From: Raja brachyura
Lineage: Eukaryota
Length of the DNA stretch: 64,000 bases
Assembly (NCBI GenBank): GCA_963514005.1
Contig: OY740790.1
Coordinates: forward strand, 49,042,001 to 49,106,000
Direction of reading: 5' to 3'
Shown: piece after piece, positions 7,033 through 63,559 of the stretch
Layout of the letters: each line of letters starts with the position of its first letter
Position numbering within the stretch: the stretch's first letter is position 1
Translations under genes and position numbers: made by a program
Notes under the pieces: model-generated
What the model saw: the letters and a program-made list of their open reading frames with translations, nothing else
The model's database searches: none
What the model was told of the DNA's origin: nothing

Positions 7033-7128
7033 TCAGTTTTGCTATCAGCACCAATTAAAAGGGAAGGGGAATCACCGACAGCATCACCTCTCTCTGCAGA
7101 TGACACTCATCATTCAGACAGATACCAG
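7033..7128 (+). CDS. RNF220: RNF220 internal coding exon (96 nt, phase 0-0): SVLLSAPIKREGESPTASPLSADDTHHSDRYQ
   Basis: Pyrimidine tract and acceptor ttttccacag|TCA, donor CAG|gtggga. Peptide matches the vertebrate RNF220 segment IKREGESPTASP..DD.HHSDRYQ and is in frame with the next exon. Confidence 0.95.
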
Positions 7129-10756: not shown

Positions 10757-12059
10757 GTTAAACAATCATGCATACAGACAAGCAAACCAATGCCTACTGC
10801 TCAGGTAATTCTCAATAATTCTCAAAATTCATGTCACAATTGACAGAGGTACAATTGCTCATGCATTTAAGCAAAGTATTTCTTATTGCAGCTTTATGTC
10901 AGAGGTACTCTTGAAATTCACCATGCAGAATATACTAGGACAGAACACCATAGATTGCAAGGATCCTTTATAAAAATAATTGCTAAATTACAGCAAAATG
11001 TATAGAGAGGTTGCAGAGGAGTTTTAATGGAATGAAACCTGAAATGAGGGAACTTGAACGTGTGTCAATCAAGAAAATCAATGACTGTTCTCCATAGAGA
11101 AGGTTAAGAGTAGATTTAATATCCAAAGTTATGAGAGATCTAATTAACTCAGTAAGAGGCAACTATTTTCTCTATCTGGAGGCTCAGAAACCAGAAGACA
11201 TAAATTTAAGATATCAGGCAAAATAATCAGGTGAGTTAAGTTTTAGCTGAACATTATTTGATTCAGTGGCTTGGAGTGCAGTGGTTGCAAGAAGATCCAA
11301 CAATAAATTTCAAAAGGGAAATTGTTATATATGTGAAAAAGAAAGTAAATGCAGGATATTGACAAAGAGCAGGAGAATGCAACAAATTGAAGAGCCCTTT
11401 CAAATCACTGACATAGACATGATAGCCAAATGGTCTTCTGTACTTTATGACTCCAGAAGACGACATCCCTAACGGTGAGAGAAAACAAACTGTGTATCTG
11501 GCTTAATTAGTGTTTGAGTATCTCAGTAAGTGAATTATTGGATCCTCACCACTTCTAATTATAAATAGTTTGTATAATTGATGCTCTCCTGTTGTTGATG
11601 AAAATGTGTGTTTTACTGTGTTGTGCTATCATTAACCTCTCACATGCAGAAGGAATAGTGCCAGAGAATGTTGTCTCTATGAGGAGCTGTTATCACTGTA
11701 CCAGTCTCATCAGTAGTCTACAATCTAATTTGTGTGTGTGTATTTTTCATTCAATGACAACATTTGCCTGTTCTTTCCCAATTCTAATTAGTTGTATTAA
11801 TTCAATGTGCAATTTTCAGTTCAAGGGGTTTGCTTAAGATGTGAAGGGAAATTGTCCTATTGTTTCTTGTATTGGTGAAAGGTTTATTTTCTGCCTTGAA
11901 TGCTTTTAAAAAAATATGTTCTGTCTTGAATGCACGAAGTTGTTTTCAGGTGTAATTAAGAAGCGCATGAAGTGTTGCAAAGAGCAGTAACAGCGTGGGC
12001 TGCAGCACTGGCTGAGAGAAGTCCAGGCACTGTTCTTGGATGCTGAGCTGCTGCCACCT

Positions 12060-12260
12060 ATCGGGCGCTTGGCGCAGGCGCGCTTTGTGACGTGCACTTT
12101 CACCTTTCGCCGGCGGTCACGTGGCCGCGCTTTCTCCGAGGCCTGGTGGAAGCTGTGCAAGATGCAGCCTCTTGGTTACAATCCAATGACATCCTCCCAG
12201 TTGCTGTGAACTGCACGGATCGGATTATAAAGGTGCAAAGCTTCCAGGTGCTACATTCAT
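12060..12260 (+). promoter_or_regulatory. Putative internal (alternative) promoter of RNF220, CpG-rich patch
   Basis: Dense non-repeat CpG cluster in CpG-poor DNA. NRF1-like GCGCAGGCGC (12072-12081), CRE-like TGACGTG (12088-12094), E-box CACGTG (12118-12123), CCAAT (12183-12187), TATAAA (12226-12231), Inr-like CTACATT (12251-12257). Confidence 0.65.
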
Positions 12261-12300
12261 GCCAAGTAATATTGACAGGTTATCCCATTTTAATCCTGCC

Positions 12301-12351
12301 ATGGACCCAGCAGGAGTGGAGGATCCAGAACACACCAATGGCAAGGAGGAA
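12301..12351 (+). CDS. RNF220: Putative alternative first coding exon of a short RNF220 isoform: MDPAGVEDPEHTNGKEE
   Basis: Kozak gccATGg at 12301 (in-frame upstream ATG at 12259). Phase-0 donor GAA|gtaggt at 12352 and a 156-nt intron lead to the phase-0 acceptor at 12508. Confidence 0.7.
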
Positions 12352-12507
12352 GTAGGTTTTGTTTACATCCTGTGTAGTTGGGGCAATGGGAGAATCCACT
12401 GCAATCCATCTGCTTCAAACATATATTTCACTTATATTCGGGCAGTATTTGACAGTTTAAGTGCTTCTTATTTATTTTTCACCTTTCTTTTCTGTTTTTC
12501 TTCATAG

Positions 12508-12550
12508 ACATTTTTGCGAGTAAGGTCCAACAGGCAAGCAAGGCTGAATG
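12508..12550 (+). CDS. RNF220: RNF220 coding exon (43 nt, phase 0-1): TFLRVRSNRQARLN(A)
   Basis: Long pyrimidine tract with ttcatag|ACA, donor G|gtaagg. Matches RNF220 TFLRVRANRQTRLN. Confidence 0.95.
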
Positions 12551-12776
12551 GTAAGGTTACGTGTATGGCAACTTTGTAAAATACTAATTTAAGGGGGAAA
12601 AAGCTTTTTTTGAAATGGGGGAGGAGGTTTCAATTAAAGCTGCACTCTTTGATGAAAACAATTGAAATATATGCCATGAGGTGATAGCTTTTCAGTGTTT
12701 TCCATGACTTGTATGGTAAACACACTTCATATTGAGTAACTTTTTGCTCCATTCTGAATGGAAAGAACAGACATAA

Positions 12777-12831
12777 CAATTGTTGTTGCACAAGGATTTT
12801 GGAAGTGTTTATTTTCAACATCAATCCTTTC

Positions 12832-16492: not shown

Positions 16493-16989
16493 CACAGAAT
16501 AATGTTGCGCACGGTTTTTATATGAGGTTCTGGGGTTTCCTGTTGTTGTCCATGTTAAAGGCTTATTTACAATTCAACTGCAAACCTGGCTTGGTAATCT
16601 GTAGTTGGCCATTTTAGAAAATCTTGCTGTCTCTAATTATTTATTTTATTTGAAACTTCTTTCCATTGTTAATTGATATTCCTCCCCCAGTCACCATTAT
16701 AAAGCAGTCATGCTTTGAATCTTTCAAAATAACAAATTGTTAAATTGAACTCCATATGTAAACCAGTTGTAAACATATTGAATAACAATTTGCAGATTGT
16801 TAAAAGACAATCTCTGAATTGATGTGTAATTGCTGCACAAGCTAACAGGTTTCTCTTAGGATATTAGAAGATCTTCAAAAGATATGTAATCTGAAATGCG
16901 CGTTTCAGATTATAAATGCATTTAAATCATAATTTCTGTTTGCAATTTGAGTTTAAAGGTTCTGATTTTTGATAACGGAACTGAATGTT

Positions 16990-19173
16990 AGGACCAAACA
17001 CCCTCAACCACTGCTACACCACCATCAAGAATGCCTACCGCTCTATCCCTCGCCCTCACTTCGGTAAATCCGACCATACCGCGGTGCTTGCTTCTTCCTG
17101 CCTACAGGCAGCAATTAAAGAGCGCACCCCAGAGGTGAGGACAGTACAGAGCTGGTTGGCGGGGGCAGAGGAACAACTACAAGACTGTTTGGAGTCTGTG
17201 GACTGGGCTATGTTCAAGGACTCGGCAAAGGACTTGAATGAATACGCCACAGTCGTTACAGACTTCATAAAGAAATGTGTGGAGGACTGCATCCCTACAA
17301 AAACCTTCCGAGTGTTTCCCAATCAGAAACTTTGGATGAACTGTGAGATCCGCACTCTTCTGAAGACCAGACACCGGGCATTCATGTCTGATGACTCCGT
17401 GGTCTATAAGAAGTCCAGATACGACCTTGGTAAGGCCATCAAAAAGGCCAAAAGGGAGTTCTGCTCCAAGCTGGAGGATGAGACAGATGTTCGGCAACTG
17501 TGGCGGGGACTGAATGCAATCACCTCTTACAAGGCGAAACCAGGAGGCAGCTCGGATGTCGGTGATACATCACTCCCTGATGAACTCAATGCATTTTATG
17601 CACGCTTTGATAAGGAGAACACCGATGTGCCTTCCCGAGCCCTTATTCGCTGTGATGGTATTTCAGTCTCAGTCACAGAGGCCGACGTCAGGAAATCCTT
17701 CAGAGGGGTGAACCCTCGAAAAGCATCTGGACCTGATGGCGTACCTGGTCGTGTCCTAAAATCCTGTGCGGACCAACTGGCTGGAGTTTCTACGGACATT
17801 TTCAACCTGTCACTTCTGAGGTCTGAGGTTCCCACCTGCTTCAAAAGGGCATCAATAATACCGGTGCCCAAGAAGAGCAAGGTGACATGCCTCAATGACT
17901 ATCGACCTGTGGCACTAACGCCTGTGGTGATGGTGCTTTGAGAGGTTGATCATGGCGCAAATCGACTCCTACCTCGACAAAAACCTGGACCGACTACAGT
18001 TCGCTTACCGCCACAACAGATCAACGGTGGACGCAATCTCGCTGGCCCTCCACTCCACTCTGGACCACTTGGACAACAAAAACAAAAGCTCGGCATTTAA
18101 CACAATCATCCCCTCCAAGCTGGTTACCAAACTCGCAGAACTGGGTCTCTGCGCATCCCTCTGTAATTGGATCCTCGACTTCCTCATCCACAGACCACAG
18201 TCTGTTCGTATTGGTGGAAATGTTTCAGACACGATAACAATCAGCACGGGAGCACCTCAGGGTTGCGTGCTCAGCCCCCTGCTGTACTCACTCTATACTC
18301 ATGACTGCGTAGCTGGTCATAGCGCGAATTCCATCATCAAGTTCGCTGATGACACCACTGTTGTGGGACGTATCACTGATGGGGATGAGTCAGAGTATAG
18401 AAAAGAGATCGAGCAACTGTCCATATGGTGCCGGCACAACAACCTGGCCCTCAACACCAGCAAAACCAAGGAACTGATTATGGACTTTGGAAGGAGTAGG
18501 ATGGGGACCCACAGTCCTGTTTATATCAACGGGTCGATGGTTGAAAGGGTCAAGAGCTTCAAATTCCTGGGCGTGCACATCTGTGAAGATCTTTCCTGGT
18601 CCGAGAACACAGATGCAATTATTAAGAAAGCTCATCAGCGCCTCTACTTCCTGAGACGATTACGGAGAGTCGGTCTGTCAAGGAGGACTCTCTCTAACTT
18701 CTACAGGTGCACAGTAGAGAGCTTGCTGACTGGTTGCATCGTGGCTTGGTTCGGCAACTTGAGCGCCCTGGAGAGGAAAAGACTACAAAAAGTAGTAAAC
18801 TCTGACCTTCCTTCCATCGAGGGGATTTATCACAGTCGCTGCCTCAAAAAGGCTGGCAGCATCATCAAGGACCCACACCACCCTGGCCACAAACTCATCT
18901 CCTTGCTACCTTCGGGTAGAAGGTACAGGAGCCTGAAGACTGCAACAACCCGGTTTAGGAATAGCTACTTCCCACAGACATCAGGCTATTAAACCTGGCT
19001 CGGAACACTGAACATTAATATCCCTCCATCTGTTATTTGCACTTTATTAATTCATGGGTGATTTATGTATAGAATTGTAGTCAATGCATTCTATGTTCTG
19101 TTGTGCTATGCAAAGAAAGATTTTCATTGTCCTGTCAGGGACACATGACAATAAACTCTTTTGACTTTGACTT
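16990..19173 (+). mobile_element. Rex1/Babar-clade non-LTR retrotransposon, 5'-truncated, frameshifted endonuclease/RT ORF
   Basis: ORFs 16985-17941 and 17946-18992 carry SDH (APE C-terminus), [26 protein letters not shown] and [10 protein letters not shown]; ttgac-type tail. Confidence 0.92.
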
Positions 19174-44668: not shown

Positions 44669-44793
44669 CACGGATAGGGAAAAACAAGAGGAAGAAGGCC
44701 TCAGACGATGGCCAGGTATGTCCACTATGCAATGAGACGCTCTCTGGATCTGTGGAGGAGATGAGTAGACATGTGGAAGCCTGCCTGGACCAG
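44669..44793 (+). CDS. RNF220: RNF220 coding exon with two donors (short 44669-44715, long 44669-44793): (A)RIGKNKRKKASDDGQ[VCPLCNETLSGSVEEMSRHVEACLDQ]
   Basis: Acceptor tctttcag|CA completes the phase-1 Ala codon. Donors CAG|gtatgt (44716) and CAG|gtagtt (44794) are both phase 0. Basic NLS-like KNKRKK matches RNF220 ARIGKMKRRK. Confidence 0.93.
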
Positions 44794-51404: not shown

Positions 51405-51543
51405 AGAGATGGCTCTTACACAAATGATGATGAGTCTGTGGACATAGAAAATGAAAGTGCAAGCGGGAACAGATTTGAAGAATATGAATGGTGTGGACAG
51501 AAGAGAATACGCGCTACAACCTTATTAGAAGGTGGCTTTCGTG
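51405..51543 (+). CDS. RNF220: RNF220 coding exon (139 nt, phase 0-1): RDGSYTNDDESVDIENESASGNRFEEYEWCGQKRIRATTLLEGGFR(G)
   Basis: Acceptor ccacag|AGA, donor G|gtatgc. Contains the diagnostic RNF220 motif RFEEYEWCGQKRIRATTLLEGGF. Confidence 0.97.
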
Positions 51544-54313
51544 GTATGCAATATTTTGAAGGTTTATTCTTTTATTGTTTAGCTAATTAAACTTTTATAA
51601 TCAATCACCAAAAGACAATTTAAAATTAATGCTTTTGAAAGCTGCTTGTCTTTTGTATGTTTTGAACTTTTTGAAAAGTGCAGAATACTTGGTGCTGTCT
51701 ATGCAATCTGCATCTGGGATTTCTACTTTTGGCCAGGATCAAAACCAGATGGATGAATAGCTTGGATGAAGAGAAGATGTTCTGATATTTAAATAAAAAT
51801 GTCATAGAATTTCCAGTAAATGTTGGTCAAAAAGTGATTGATAGTCTTGTTTGCAAGAGAGGGGGAGAGACAGCGAGAGAGAGTGAAATAAAAACAAAAC
51901 AAAAAGCATGACATGGCATTTACATAACAGCTATCACATTCCCAAAACACCTTGGGGACAGGACATAGGGTGGTGTTTACAGATTTGGCATTTTTTCATA
52001 GGTTGAAGTGACATCTAATCTAGTTAATTGATGATCTTGGTTCGAAGAGGATTCCTAACACATCACACAAGTTACTGCATTGCCATACCATGAAGCTTCT
52101 CAAAATGATTTCCCTAAAACATTTGTCCTCTGGCACGGTCAGCTGAATTTAGTAGTAAGTTATTTTCAGAATAATGTGGTTGAATTCCATTCATAGTTCT
52201 TCAGCAAAAGAACCAGTTCATACCTGAATGCAGCAAAAAATAGACTATTAAATTGTCAATAATTATTTTCTTTAACCAGAAAGATTCTAGCTACCTGTCC
52301 TTGCCATTCAGTGTGTAAACAGTGATGCGCCCCTCAATATTTGTCTCTTTTTGCATTGACCAGAAACACACTGGAAATGGGAGCACCCCCACCTGCATCT
52401 TTCTTTCCAAATCATGCACTACACTCAATTTGTAAATATATTACCATAACTTCATTGTTGCTCAGTTCCAAACTTTAAAATGATGTATTACCTGAAAGGG
52501 ATTTATTGTGACAAAAGCTTTTACTCTTTCCACCATTGGCACACTGTTCCAAAATGTATAATATAGACATACTATAGCAACTTGCCAAAATTTTATTAGT
52601 AGCACCTTCAAGTACTTTGCTGTCTTCAGCCAAGAAGAGCTAGGGGAGCAGGCATGTCAACTGAATGGCTCATTTAAGTTGCATATCATTATGAATTATT
52701 TTACCATTTTTCAGATTAATTGGGTAAAAATTTCCAAACACTGTCCCCGTACCTAAACAACAATGCAAGGTTGCTGCACCATGTGGACTGCACAAGTTTG
52801 AGAAAGCATCTTTTTTTTTTAAGGGAAAATGAAAGTCAAAGAAATGCAGAAACTGAAAAGCTGCAACAACAAAAAAAATAAAAATGCTGGAAACGCTCAA
52901 TAGGTTGGACTACATCAGTTCGGGGTTTCAGGTCTAGACGAGATATTTCCTTTGTTGTAACTATACTTTCAACCTCCCCACCTCTCTGGACCAATTTTCT
53001 CCCTTCCCAAGTTAAGGGTCTTCAACCTGAAACATGAACTGTTTTACTTTCCACAAAGCTGGGGGTTGCAAGGTTCTTTGTTTTTATATAATCTTTTCAA
53101 GGGTAGCTATGATGGGTTATAGTTATTAAGACAACCACATTCCATGTTTGAAATTTTTAGAAAACGGTCATTTATTTTTTTATGAGAACGTAAAATGGAT
53201 TTTGACAAAGCATTAATGAACATCTTCTGTAGTTAATGAGCAATGGCAAGATTTTATTCTTTAGAAATTTGTGAGAAAGACTGAAATTCAGCTGGTAAAT
53301 TTCCTTTAAAGAAATCTGTCAAATCAAGCCATTTGTTCATTCCTAATATTTGACCTTAACTTGACCAGTCCTGGGAATGTAATTTTAGTGAGGCTCTGCT
53401 TTTGGCTCACTGAGGGCAGAATAGCTGAGAAATGAGAGCTTGTCAAACAAAATTCCCTGTTATCTCCCTTGTTTTACCTAAATGAGGTAGGGCAAGGAGC
53501 ACAGTGTCTCATTTCAAAAGTTATAAAATATTAAAAAAGCTGTGTCTAGTGGGAGCTGCCAGGGGGATTGCAGGTACAAGGGCTACGATCAATTTGTACC
53601 GTTTTTCTAATGAAAGATCCAGAGTTTGTGTCAGATGCGCTTCACAGCTAGGCCTGTCATGTCGACTGACGAATAAGTCGGTATTCTTAGCTAGCTTGAA
53701 AGGACGTGAATGTATGCTTGGCACAATCTTTAAGAAACCACATCATGGTCTCATTATTGGACCAGATTATTTTGTTTAAAGGTGCAGGAATGAATGTTGG
53801 AGTAAAATATTTTAAGCTCAGCAAATGCGAACTATAAGTTCTTTGGTACACTCTTCTGGATGGATACAAAACATAGGCATATTTTTAGAAGAAAGTAGCA
53901 TGCTGGCTCATAGGTTTTATAATTTGATTGGTGCTACTGATTGCTATTTTAGGATTTTAACTGTATAGTTGTAGTTCACTCAAAGCAAGCTTTCCATTTC
54001 AGGTATAATAGATATTTTGAGCAAGGTCATTTCATAGAAAGTGTTCATAAGGCTTTTTGATTGCTTCAAATTTGTCATCTGTTACATAGCATCATTGCTA
54101 GAGCTCTGAAATGTGACTGTTGCTGTCCCAAATTTAAATTCATTTGTAGCTGAAATTATGTTGCGTATTCCCTCTCTACATTTTTTTGTTTCTGGAATTA
54201 GTTCTGCTCACATTAGTAGTTGTTAATGAGATATTCTTCATGCTATTGAATAGTTTTATAGCACAAAGAAGTGGTGAAATGGTGTGCACGAGAATGTAAT
54301 GTATAGCTAGCTG

Positions 54314-60649: not shown

Positions 60650-62358
60650 TCAAGTCAAGTCAAGAGGGTTTATTGTCATGTGTCCAGATAGGACAATGAA
60701 ATTCTTGCTTGCTGCAACACAACAGAATATTGTTGGCATAAATACAGATCAGATCAGTGTTACCATATACCATAGAATGTATATGTATGTGTATATATAT
60801 GTGTATATATATATATATATATCCGCTCCTGGACGCTCAGGTTGCCATACCAAGCCACGATGCAACTGGTCGGCATGCTCTCTACAGTGCACCTGTAGAA
60901 GTTCAAGAGAGTCCTTCTTGACATACTGACTATCAGTAATCTTCTCTGGAAGTAGATGTGCTTTCTTTATAATTGCATAGTGTTCTGGAACCAGGAGAGA
61001 TCTTCGGAAATATGCACGCCCAGGAATTTGAAGTTCTTGACCCTTTCCACCATCTTGTTGATATAACCGGGACTGTGGGTCCCCATCCTACCCCTTCCGG
61101 GCCACAATCAGTTCCTTGGTTTTGCTGGTGTTGAGAGCCAGGTTATTGTGCTGGCAGCATTTGGTCAATCGGTTGCTCTCACTTCTATACTCTGACTCGT
61201 CCCCATCAGTGATACGTCCCACAACAGTGGTGTCGTCGGCGAACTTGATGATGGAGTTTGTACTATGTCCGGCTACGCTGAGTACAGCAGGGGGCTGAGC
61301 ACGCAGCCTTGAGGTGTTCCTGCGCTGATTGTTATCGAGGATGATACATTTCCACCAATACGGACAGACTGTGGTCTGTGAATGAGGAAGTTGAGGATCC
61401 AATTACAGAGGGATGCGCAGAGACCCAGATCTGAGAGCTTGGTAACCAGCTTGGAGGGGATGATGGTATTAAATGCCGAGCTGGAGTCAATGAATAACAG
61501 CCTGACATGAGTTTTTATTGTCCAAGTGTTCCAGAGCAGAATGGAGAGCCAGTAAGATCGCATCCACCGTTGATCTGTTGTGGCGGTAAGCGAACTGCAT
61601 TGGGTCCAGGTTTTTGTTGAGGTATGACTTGATTTGCGCCATGATCAGTCTCTCAAAGCACTTCATCACCACAGAAGTTAGTGCCACTGGTGGATAGTCA
61701 TTGAGGATCGTCACCTTGCTCTTCTTGGGCACCGGTATTATTGATGCCCTTTTAAAGCAGGTGGGGACCTCAGACCTCAAAAGTGAGAGGTTGAAAATGG
61801 CCGTTAAAAACTCCAGCCAGTTGGTCCGCACAGGTTTTTGAAACAAGCCCAGGTATACCATCAGGTCTAGGAGCTTTCCGAAGGTTCACCCCTCTGAAGG
61901 ATCTTCTGACGTCACGGCGAATGGGGGCTTGGGAAGGCACATCCGTGTTCTCCCTATCAAAGCGCATTGAGTTTGGTAAAACGCTTTGTGTAAAACGCAT
62001 TGAGCTCGTAAGGGAGTGATGCTTCACTGACATTTGAGCTGCCTCCTGATTTTACCTTGTAGGAGATGATTGCATTCAAGCCCCGCCACAGTTGCTGAAC
62101 ATCCGTCTCATCCTCCAGCTTGGAGCAGAAGTCCTTTTTGGCCTTTTTAATGGCCTTACCAAGGTCGTATCTGGACTTCTTGTAGACCGCTATTCTCCAG
62201 ACCTGTATGCCTGGGATCTGGTCTTCAGAAGAATACAGATCTCATGGTTCATCCAAGGCTTCTGGTTAGGAAACACTCTGAAGTTTTTTGTTGGGTTGCA
62301 GTCCTCCACAAATTTCTTTATGAAGTCTGTAGCGACTGTGGCATATTCATTCATTCAG
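60650..62358 (-). mobile_element. Rex1/Babar LINE, second copy (antisense), with internal deletions; older Rex remnants at about 60030-60640
   Basis: Minus ORFs contain [38 protein letters not shown] and [21 protein letters not shown], nearly identical to 16990-19173; (CAAGT)n tail at 60651. Confidence 0.92.
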
Positions 62359-62840: not shown

Positions 62841-63452
62841 TAGGTTTTACCTAGCCAGGATATATATTTTATGGGTATATTCATTTCTTTAAAAAATTGT
62901 GTTCTGATCTGAAACTTTTGACATTTTTATTAAGGACAGCAAACTCTATAGTATATACAATTTAGCTAAATTGTTCTATCGGTATCCAATTCCCTGTTAC
63001 ACATTTGTTATCTATTATTAAGGGAGTCTTAATAATTTGCAGAACATATTTTCCTTTTCTGTTCATCATGGTGATTTTACTTAAGGTCTTTGCTCTACTT
63101 TGAACAAACATTCTGTGACTCCACTTGAGGTAGACAGTTACTTTGAAGAGATAACTGGTAATTTACTTTTGGTTTGAAATTGGCATTGAAAATTCATGAA
63201 TAAAAATTAAGAATTTACTGAGCGTGACTTGTCTGTAAACTGCTGTTTTTGCGTGGAGTAGATGGCAATGAGTATATAACGTAATGATAAAAATGCAGCT
63301 AATGTTATAGTGGGAACTATTAGTGGCAAATTTTCCAAAAAAGTGTAATATTTTACATTTTGACAAATGCAGAGAGTCCACCTTAATTTTAAACTGTTAT
63401 ATGTGATGTGCTTTTACCTCATTATACACCATTGTTTTTATTTTAAACATAG

Positions 63453-63549
63453 GATCTGGGTTTGTCACGTGCAGCAGTAAAGAGAACCATGATAGTGATG
63501 CAGATCTTGATGTGGATGGAGACGACACCTTGGAGTATGGGAAACCACA
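63453..63549 (+). CDS. RNF220: RNF220 coding exon (97 nt, phase 1-2): (G)SGFVTCSSKENHDSDADLDVDGDDTLEYGKP(Q)
   Basis: Acceptor aaacatag|GA. Peptide matches RNF220 DSDADLDVDGDDTLEYGKPQ. The 3' boundary is inferred at CA|gcatcctttt, since read-through stops within a few codons. Confidence 0.93.
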
Positions 63550-63559
63550 GCATCCTTTT
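63550..63559 (+). other. U12-type (minor spliceosome) 5' splice site with GC dinucleotide: GCATCCTTTT
   Basis: Matches the U12 donor consensus RTATCCTTT at every position except +2, and sits exactly where RNF220 homology ends. Confidence 0.75.

What the first reader, a model, noticed from the sequence alone, without database searches (positions are those of the whole stretch)
12060..12550. Hidden internal promoter and alternative first exon predicting an N-terminally truncated RNF220
Seen: a CpG-dense non-repeat patch with NRF1-like, CRE-like, E-box, CCAAT, TATAAA (12226) and Inr-like (12253) motifs in plausible order. It is followed by a strong Kozak ATG (12301), 17 codons (MDPAGVEDPEHTNGKEE) and a phase-0 donor 156 nt before the phase-0 TFLRV exon. 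Recalled and needing verification: mammals express a short, roughly 300-aa N-truncated RNF220 isoform. Inference: the two-promoter design exists in cartilaginous fish and may be ancestral to jawed vertebrates. The short form would keep the NLS-like segment, the RNF220 middle domain and the RING.
Basis: partly seen in the sequence, partly recalled or inferred. Interest (0 to 1): 0.7.

Follow-up and report, generated by a model that had tools for sequence, protein, structure and literature searches.

The report
Ancient second start exon of RNF220
Inside an intron of a skate-like fish's RNF220 ubiquitin-ligase gene lies an extra exon that assembled transcripts splice onto the next coding exon; it is likely the first exon of the short RNF220 form known from mammals, which would make this second start as old as jawed vertebrates, while the long form's front end is older still.

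Summary
The feature is real and largely known. The 12351-12508 GT-AG junction stands in 4 of 4 laid runs, from 4 studies. RefSeq already predicts this 325-aa isoform in sharks and rays, and it corresponds to human isoform 4 (PMC12296455). Contigs begin at 12118-12145, about 80-110 nt upstream of the TATAAA, so the TATA and Inr lie inside the transcript. A conserved in-frame ATG at 12259 precedes 12301. The long N-terminus occurs in hagfish, amphioxus, hemichordate, annelid, whitefly and, weakly, coral. That argues against the published suggestion that the short form is the original one. The mammalian second start (M38) is Asn here. The optional 78-nt exon tail encodes a UBZ-like zinc finger. 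The TSS, translation and tissue pattern were not measured. The scan held no earlier RNF220 finding.

The parts
11900..12200 (.). Small CpG-rich, single-copy patch; the likely promoter region
   Evidence: CpG o/e 0.68-0.76 vs 0.34; single copy
12072..12123 (+). Cluster of three motifs: NRF1-like (12072), CRE-like TGACGTG (12088), E-box GTCACGTG (12116); factor names are recalled, binding untested
   Evidence: all three together in 0 of 5000 shuffles, chosen after the fact
12118..12351 (+). Alternative first exon as covered by transcript contigs; 5' ends at 12118, 12145, 12118, 12123 with no loose 5' ends
   Evidence: tables 5, 7, 8
12162..12209 (+). Out-of-frame upstream ORF, 15 codons plus stop, A at -3; could dampen translation (inferred)
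12226..12231 (+).
12259..12261 (+). In-frame ATG in weak context; start of the annotated 325-aa form
12301..12303 (+). In-frame ATG in strong Kozak context; would give 311 aa
12316..12318 (+). GTG at the position of the inferred ancestral start codon (Met in 5 shark entries and the sawfish, and the first residue in ray-finned fish)
12352..12507 (+). 156-nt GT-AG intron
12508..12550 (+). First exon shared by long and short forms
7033..7128 (+). Last exon specific to the long form; splices to the same acceptor at 12508
   Evidence: loose end in run X3
44669..44793 (+). Next exon: basic NLS-like stretch, with two phase-0 donors (44716, 44794); the optional 78-nt tail encodes a C2HC, UBZ-like finger
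51405..51545 (+). Downstream RNF220-domain exon
63452..63550 (+). Downstream RNF220-domain exon; remaining exons, including the RING, continue beyond the window to about 117,800 in window numbering

Best explanation
A 234-nt exon (12118-12351) near the 3' end of an RNF220 intron is spliced in frame to the shared exon at 12508 in transcript contigs, and it is likely the first exon of an internal promoter that makes the N-truncated RNF220 known as human isoform 4. Transcription probably starts at or just upstream of 12118, in a TATA-less CpG patch behind NRF1-like, CRE-like and E-box motifs (inferred), about 334 kb downstream of the long form's first coding exon (shown). Ribosomes would pass a short upstream ORF, start partly at the weak ATG 12259 (325 aa) and mostly at the strong ATG 12301 (311 aa) (inferred). 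The product lacks the long form's first 300 residues and first finger motif. It keeps the basic NLS-like stretch, the rear two thirds of the RNF220 domain and the RING. At least one transcript-derived form also carries the optional UBZ-like finger. By analogy with mammals, this promoter likely supplies the broadly expressed ligase and the far promoter the neural one (untested here). The exon was probably present in the last common ancestor of jawed vertebrates, added to a gene whose long N-terminus is older than vertebrates.
For: Junction 12351>12508 with GT..AG ends in 4 of 4 runs from 4 studies and 4 coded organisms; no cover in flanking introns; contigs go on into the exon at 44669. The contigs' 5' ends cluster at 12118-12145 with no loose ends; an in-frame stop lies at 12187; no strong acceptor lies upstream (at most 13 of 20 pyrimidines). 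10 of 14 members of the shark/ray cluster begin with this exon's peptide. By my count, 58 of the 81 new proteins begin with a comparable short first-exon peptide: gar, bowfin, sturgeon, paddlefish, teleosts, frogs, lizard, marsupials, placentals. Homology test of the window's last 12 codons: vs 9 ray-finned peptides, 0 of 8638 background and 0 of 20000 shuffles score as high; vs 4 amphibian, 2 of 8638 and 38 of 20000; vs 5 amniote, 33 of 8638 and 280 of 20000. Sheep P0390 is 308 aa with Met at 38, as PMC12296455 describes for isoform 4; the 78-nt donor choice equals the paper's 224 vs 146 bp amplicons. The long first coding exon is in the own genome at C10:48720368, and the long-form junction is seen in run X3. 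Long N-terminus (residues 1-210) bit scores: hagfish 188, amphioxus 144, annelid 97, hemichordate 77, whitefly 54, coral 33, against at most 27 in 200 shuffles each.
Against: All laid data are assembled contigs, which cannot show a start, a strand or a level. No run is on record as RNA, and the tool calls X3 'probably DNA'. Runs were selected for holding this stretch, so predominance of the short form cannot be inferred; only 4 of 24 listed runs were laid. RefSeq XP entries are predictions. The amniote peptide match is weak on its own and rests on position, phase and the amphibian bridge. The 12-codon window and the comparison peptides were picked after viewing the alignment. No protein-level or chromatin evidence exists here for a cartilaginous fish. 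No chimaera, coelacanth, lungfish or cyclostome short form was seen. The coral match covers only 20 residues.
Confidence: 0.9

Rival explanations
1. The main start is the reader's TATA (12226) / Inr (12253) core promoter, giving a short leader with ATG 12301 as first usable start.
For: TATAAA appears in only 115 of 5000 shuffles; its spacing to an Inr-like pattern at 12251 is plausible; a downstream start would be hidden inside a contig.
Against: 4 of 4 contigs extend 80-110 nt further upstream. TATAAAG fails TATAWAW. The Mustelus isoform P0127 starts with Met-Lys-Val where the window's shifted frame reads Ile-Lys-Val across this hexamer, which implies ATGAAG instead of ATAAAG (inferred from protein only).
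Confidence: 0.12
2. The exon is an internal cassette or the end of a longer 5' structure whose true first exon lies further upstream.
For: Contigs cannot show a start, and 5' ends can be lost in assembly.
Against: No loose 5' end in 4 of 4 runs; no strong acceptor; the in-frame stop at 12187 would cut the long ORF; a CpG and motif cluster sits right at the 5' ends.
Confidence: 0.04
3. The short first exons of sharks and of bony vertebrates arose independently beside the same acceptor.
For: The peptides are only 8-31 residues; amniote similarity is weak; no DNA alignment across species could be made.
Against: Residue-by-residue similarity between shark and eel, gar and catfish peptides over 12 codons, ending at the same phase-0 junction; 0 of 8638 background peptides match as well.
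Confidence: 0.04
4. The spliced contigs come from a processed retrocopy in DNA, not from RNA.
For: Run types are guesses and X3 is flagged 'probably DNA'; a stingray has a decayed second copy with the short N-terminus on another contig (P0125).
Against: No second copy in this genome; zero intron cover in 4 of 4 runs; a retrocopy would itself require the spliced mRNA.
Confidence: 0.02

Closest known systems
[quoted passage not shown] 2025, PMC12296455; parts 1-2 of 3 of the text read, covering the whole main text; figures and supplement not seen)
   Same: Own short first exon before the shared exon, loss of the N-terminal half, RING kept, about 310 aa, and a 78-nt alternative extension of the following exon.
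   Different: No Met at the M38 position (Asn), so no 4b start there. Two in-frame ATGs lie inside the first exon, both upstream of the NLS-like stretch. Expression, chromatin and function are shown only in mammals. The paper suggests the short form is the original; the long N-terminus in invertebrates argues against that.
RefSeq-predicted 325-aa RNF220a isoforms of sharks and rays (e.g. XP_041063991.1, XP_059840122.1, XP_051867781.1)
   Same: The same exon and junction; the first 31 residues are identical to the window in P0122 and P0123.
   Different: Automatic annotations, started at the first in-frame ATG (window 12259); I found no paper discussing them.
UBZ-type zinc fingers of RAD18, WRNIP1 and TAX1BP1 (for the optional 78-nt segment)
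   Same: C-x2-C...H-x3-C pattern; beta-beta-alpha model with pLDDT about 90; profile hits to RAD18 5vf0 (E 0.0015), 2mre (E 0.012) and WRNIP1 3vhs (E 0.045).
   Different: Fold-search hits are not significant (best E 1.3) and include DNA-binding C2H2 fingers. Ubiquitin binding is untested. The residue before the last Cys-Leu motif is Glu where UBZ4 fingers are recalled to need Asp.

Membership tests
DeltaN-RNF220 (isoform 4/4a) | Own exon spliced in frame to the shared exon | tested here: met
   junction in 4 of 4 runs; phase 0
DeltaN-RNF220 (isoform 4/4a) | That exon is a first exon with its own TSS and active chromatin | tested here: inconclusive
   5' ends cluster at 12118-12145 without loose ends in a CpG patch, but contigs cannot prove a start; no CAGE or H3K4me3 data
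DeltaN-RNF220 (isoform 4/4a) | Lacks the N-terminal half, keeps the RING | tested here: met
   P0133: PF15926 positions 77-248 and RING 272-311; all its coding exons map to this locus
DeltaN-RNF220 (isoform 4/4a) | First-exon peptide homologous to that of bony vertebrates | tested here: met
   strong for ray-finned fish, moderate for amphibians, weak for amniotes
DeltaN-RNF220 (isoform 4/4a) | Includes the 78-nt extension of the next exon | tested here: met
   both donors present; P0133, seen on 8 Logan contigs, has both; coupling is not strict, since some annotated short forms lack it
DeltaN-RNF220 (isoform 4/4a) | Ubiquitous, predominant expression and a detectable protein | not testable with these tools
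   only contig depth 33.5 (short) vs 10.3 (long) in one run chosen for holding the exon
Isoform 4b (second start at M38) | Met at the M38-equivalent position | tested here: not met
   Asn in the window and in 9 of 9 cartilaginous-fish proteins, and in hagfish
TATA-box core promoter | TATAWAWR match with the start about 30 nt downstream | tested here: not met
   no TATAWAW match locally; contigs begin upstream; a minor start is not excluded
UBZ-type zinc finger | Conserved C2HC ligands in a beta-beta-alpha fold | tested here: met
   C63, P64, C66, H80, C84 invariant in 53 of 53 aligned sequences, which were picked partly for having this motif; models
UBZ-type zinc finger | Binds ubiquitin | not tested
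   sequence hits E 0.0015-0.06; fold hits E above 1; no binding test run

The most novel reading that the evidence does not exclude
The long RNF220 with two finger motifs is the ancestral animal form. Early jawed vertebrates added an internal housekeeping promoter and an alternative donor, which let the gene trade modules: the short form drops finger 1 and carries a UBZ-like ubiquitin-binding finger 2, while the neural long form can skip finger 2. This reverses the published polarity and predicts isoform-specific ubiquitin binding.
Probability: 0.45. Interest if true: 0.6.

Novelty: new member of a known kind. Interest (0 to 1): 0.38.

Why it matters
RNF220 is a neural-patterning and leukodystrophy gene whose predominant short isoform was described only in 2025 (PMC12296455). 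A first exon kept from sharks to mammals indicates that the short form has long been selected. The long N-terminus in invertebrates challenges the paper's suggestion that the short form came first. The UBZ-like finger in the optional exon tail gives a concrete, testable difference between isoforms. The isoform itself is already in databases, so the surprise is moderate.

Tried and rejected
The look-up of sequencing runs: no RNA holder listed on record; 18 of 24 runs guessed as RNA. No single laying covered both 7128>12508 and 12351>12508; the long-form junction is seen only as one loose end. The 'shorter' homologue search with shark residues 301-345 gave only 3 proteins, none informative. No zebrafish long protein was retrieved, only records named isoform 10, X22 and X24 that are short; Drosophila was not tested. 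Paper searches were swamped by papers without RNF220 and show nothing. One search (RNF220 + shark) listed 8 papers, none on this isoform by title or abstract start. One search (RNF220 + UBZ) listed 2 papers; passages of one (PMC7311976) do not link the terms, and the other was seen as a listing only. Searches surfaced only the Choi paper and its preprint as directly relevant. Passages of PMC8982406 and PMC9524831 gave no RNF220 domain mapping; passages of the Tey preprint gave nothing on isoforms. The Choi supplement could not be read and may hold cross-species alignments bearing on novelty. The whole-protein fold search returned only RING-type matches among the listed rows. CCAAT and Inr were rejected as chance. 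Coding versus UTR status of 12259-12300 could not be decided: 4 of 14 columns vary vs 6 of 17 downstream, and no DNA of relatives was available. Scan look-ups gave nothing on RNF220.

Full report
Observation. The CpG patch is real (o/e 0.64-0.76 vs 0.34) and single-copy. The 5 other CpG-rich patches tested had repeat-like local matches. The NRF1-like, CRE-like and E-box motifs at 12072-12123 occurred together in 0 of 5000 shuffles; CCAAT is chance-level and TATAAA modestly unusual (115 of 5000). The motif names are recalled and the motifs were chosen after the fact.

Gene context. The window is G000:C10:49042001-49106000. Its exons match RNF220a of cartilaginous fish and carry skate-type residues. 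The long form's first coding exon lies at C10:48720368, about 334 kb upstream. Further long-form exons lie 52 kb and 16 kb before the window and at 7033-7128. Downstream exons run from 44669 to about 117,800 in window numbering.

Transcript evidence. I laid 4 of the 24 listed runs on 11500-12790. All 4, from 4 studies and 4 coded organisms, join 12351 to 12508 with GT..AG ends, have no cover in the introns, and continue into the exon at 44669. Their 5' ends are 12118, 12145, 12118 and 12123, with no loose 5' letters. Run X3 also holds the long-form junction (depth 10.3 vs 33.5). These are contigs of runs only guessed to be RNA, one flagged 'probably DNA', and selected for holding the exon. They show the junction but not the start, strand or level. 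They place the TATAAA and Inr inside the transcript, so the main start is more likely at or before 12118, directly behind the motif trio. The Mustelus isoform's upstream peptide implies that the TATAAA is not kept in that shark (inference from protein).

Start codons. The transcribed exon holds an out-of-frame upstream ORF (12162-12209), a weak in-frame ATG (12259) and the strong ATG (12301). ATG 12259 and the frame after it are kept in 10 of 10 cartilaginous-fish sequences compared, and databases start there (325 aa; 311 aa from 12301). Which start is used is not known.

Conservation. 10 of 14 members of the shark/ray cluster begin with this exon, so the isoform is already predicted in RefSeq. 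Of 81 new proteins, I count 58 with a comparable short first-exon peptide, 18 with the long-form exon, 4 with other N-termini and 1 partial. The last 12 codons align without gaps to ray-finned peptides (0 of 8638 background, 0 of 20000 shuffles), moderately to amphibians and weakly to amniotes. The ray-finned start Met corresponds to window 12316. That position is Met in sharks and sawfish and GTG (Val) here and in stingrays and Mobula. The likely ancestral start was thus supplemented by upstream ATGs in cartilaginous fish (inferred). By parsimony the exon existed in the jawed-vertebrate ancestor; cyclostomes and chimaera remain untested.

Comparison with the literature. PMC12296455 (main text read, supplement unavailable; preprint passages) describes human isoform 4. 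It is 308 aa, starts in exon 5a, has strong H3K4me3, predominates outside brain, and has a second start at M38 and a 78-nt exon-7 difference. Sheep P0390 fits that description and has the homologous junction, and the window has the same 78-nt donor pair. The M38 codon is Asn in 9 of 9 cartilaginous-fish proteins and in hagfish, so the 4b start appears limited to bony vertebrates. The paper argues from zebrafish and fly that the short form is the original. Against this, a catfish has a 629-aa long form, and several other teleosts, including a loach, have matches to the long first coding exon. The long N-terminus also matches hagfish, amphioxus, annelid, hemichordate, whitefly and, over 20 residues, coral above shuffled controls. 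I did not retrieve a zebrafish long protein and did not test Drosophila. Invertebrates may have short forms of their own; this was not tested. My searches listed no paper on this isoform in cartilaginous fish or on its evolution beyond that paper; two searches were uninformative, and most subscription papers are not searched.

Product. The transcript-derived protein P0133 matches this locus exon by exon and has PF15926 positions 77-248 plus the RING. It lacks the first finger motif and has the second, whereas coral, annelid, hemichordate and amphioxus proteins have both. The second finger is encoded by the optional tail 44716-44793. Its C, P, C, H and C residues are invariant in 53 of 53 aligned sequences, which were partly chosen for the motif. 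The profile matches the RAD18 and WRNIP1 UBZ entries at E 0.0015-0.045 at exactly this stretch, and it folds as beta-beta-alpha with pLDDT near 90. Fold-search support is weak: the best hit is TAX1BP1 UBZ at E 1.3. It is a lead, not a demonstrated UBZ. Annotated short forms without the finger and long forms with it exist, so coupling to the promoter is not absolute.

Verdict. This is a real alternative first exon, very likely orthologous to human exon 5a: a new member of a known kind, already machine-annotated in related species. The added value is its dating to jawed vertebrates, the reversed polarity of long versus short, the missing 4b start and the finger. Interest 0.38.

Noticed in passing
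P0125 (Hypanus sabinus, XP_059829990.1): An RNF220-like protein on a different contig starts with the short-form N-terminus and carries scattered substitutions and a 2-residue deletion in the RING; it looks like a processed copy of the short mRNA. Intron loss was not checked.
   Followed up: no
P0140, P0141 (Sigmodon hispidus): Two entries with the short-form N-terminus; P0141 shows unusual substitutions near the RING; possibly retrocopies too.
   Followed up: no
G000:C10, about 100,392-100,493 in window numbering (L006): A cassette exon conserved in skate and shark X1 isoforms inserts about 27-36 residues inside the RING, before its last Cys pair; it might inactivate the ligase.
   Followed up: no
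G000:C38:16840110-16840568: A paralogue with 39% identity to the long first coding exon, probably rnf220b (recalled name).
   Followed up: no
window 12162-12209: Upstream ORF of 15 codons in the short form's leader; two laid organisms differ at its sixth codon without creating a stop.
   Followed up: partly
window 12386: An intronic ATG whose peptide resembles the N-terminus of a stingray isoform (P0131, X9) that splices to the same shared exon.
   Followed up: no
window 16900-18900 and 60822-62353: Two 81%-identical inverted copies of a CpG-rich repeat with a 353-codon open frame that looks like a LINE reverse transcriptase (recalled likeness, not scanned).
   Followed up: no
P0405-P0408, P0169, P0172: Ray-finned fish have a further cassette right after the shared exon, interrupting the basic NLS-like stretch.
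   Followed up: no
P0263 (unnamed, arthropod-like): A 387-aa homologue begins with 28 unrelated residues just before the position equivalent to the shared exon; possibly an independent short form or a gene-model artefact.
   Followed up: no
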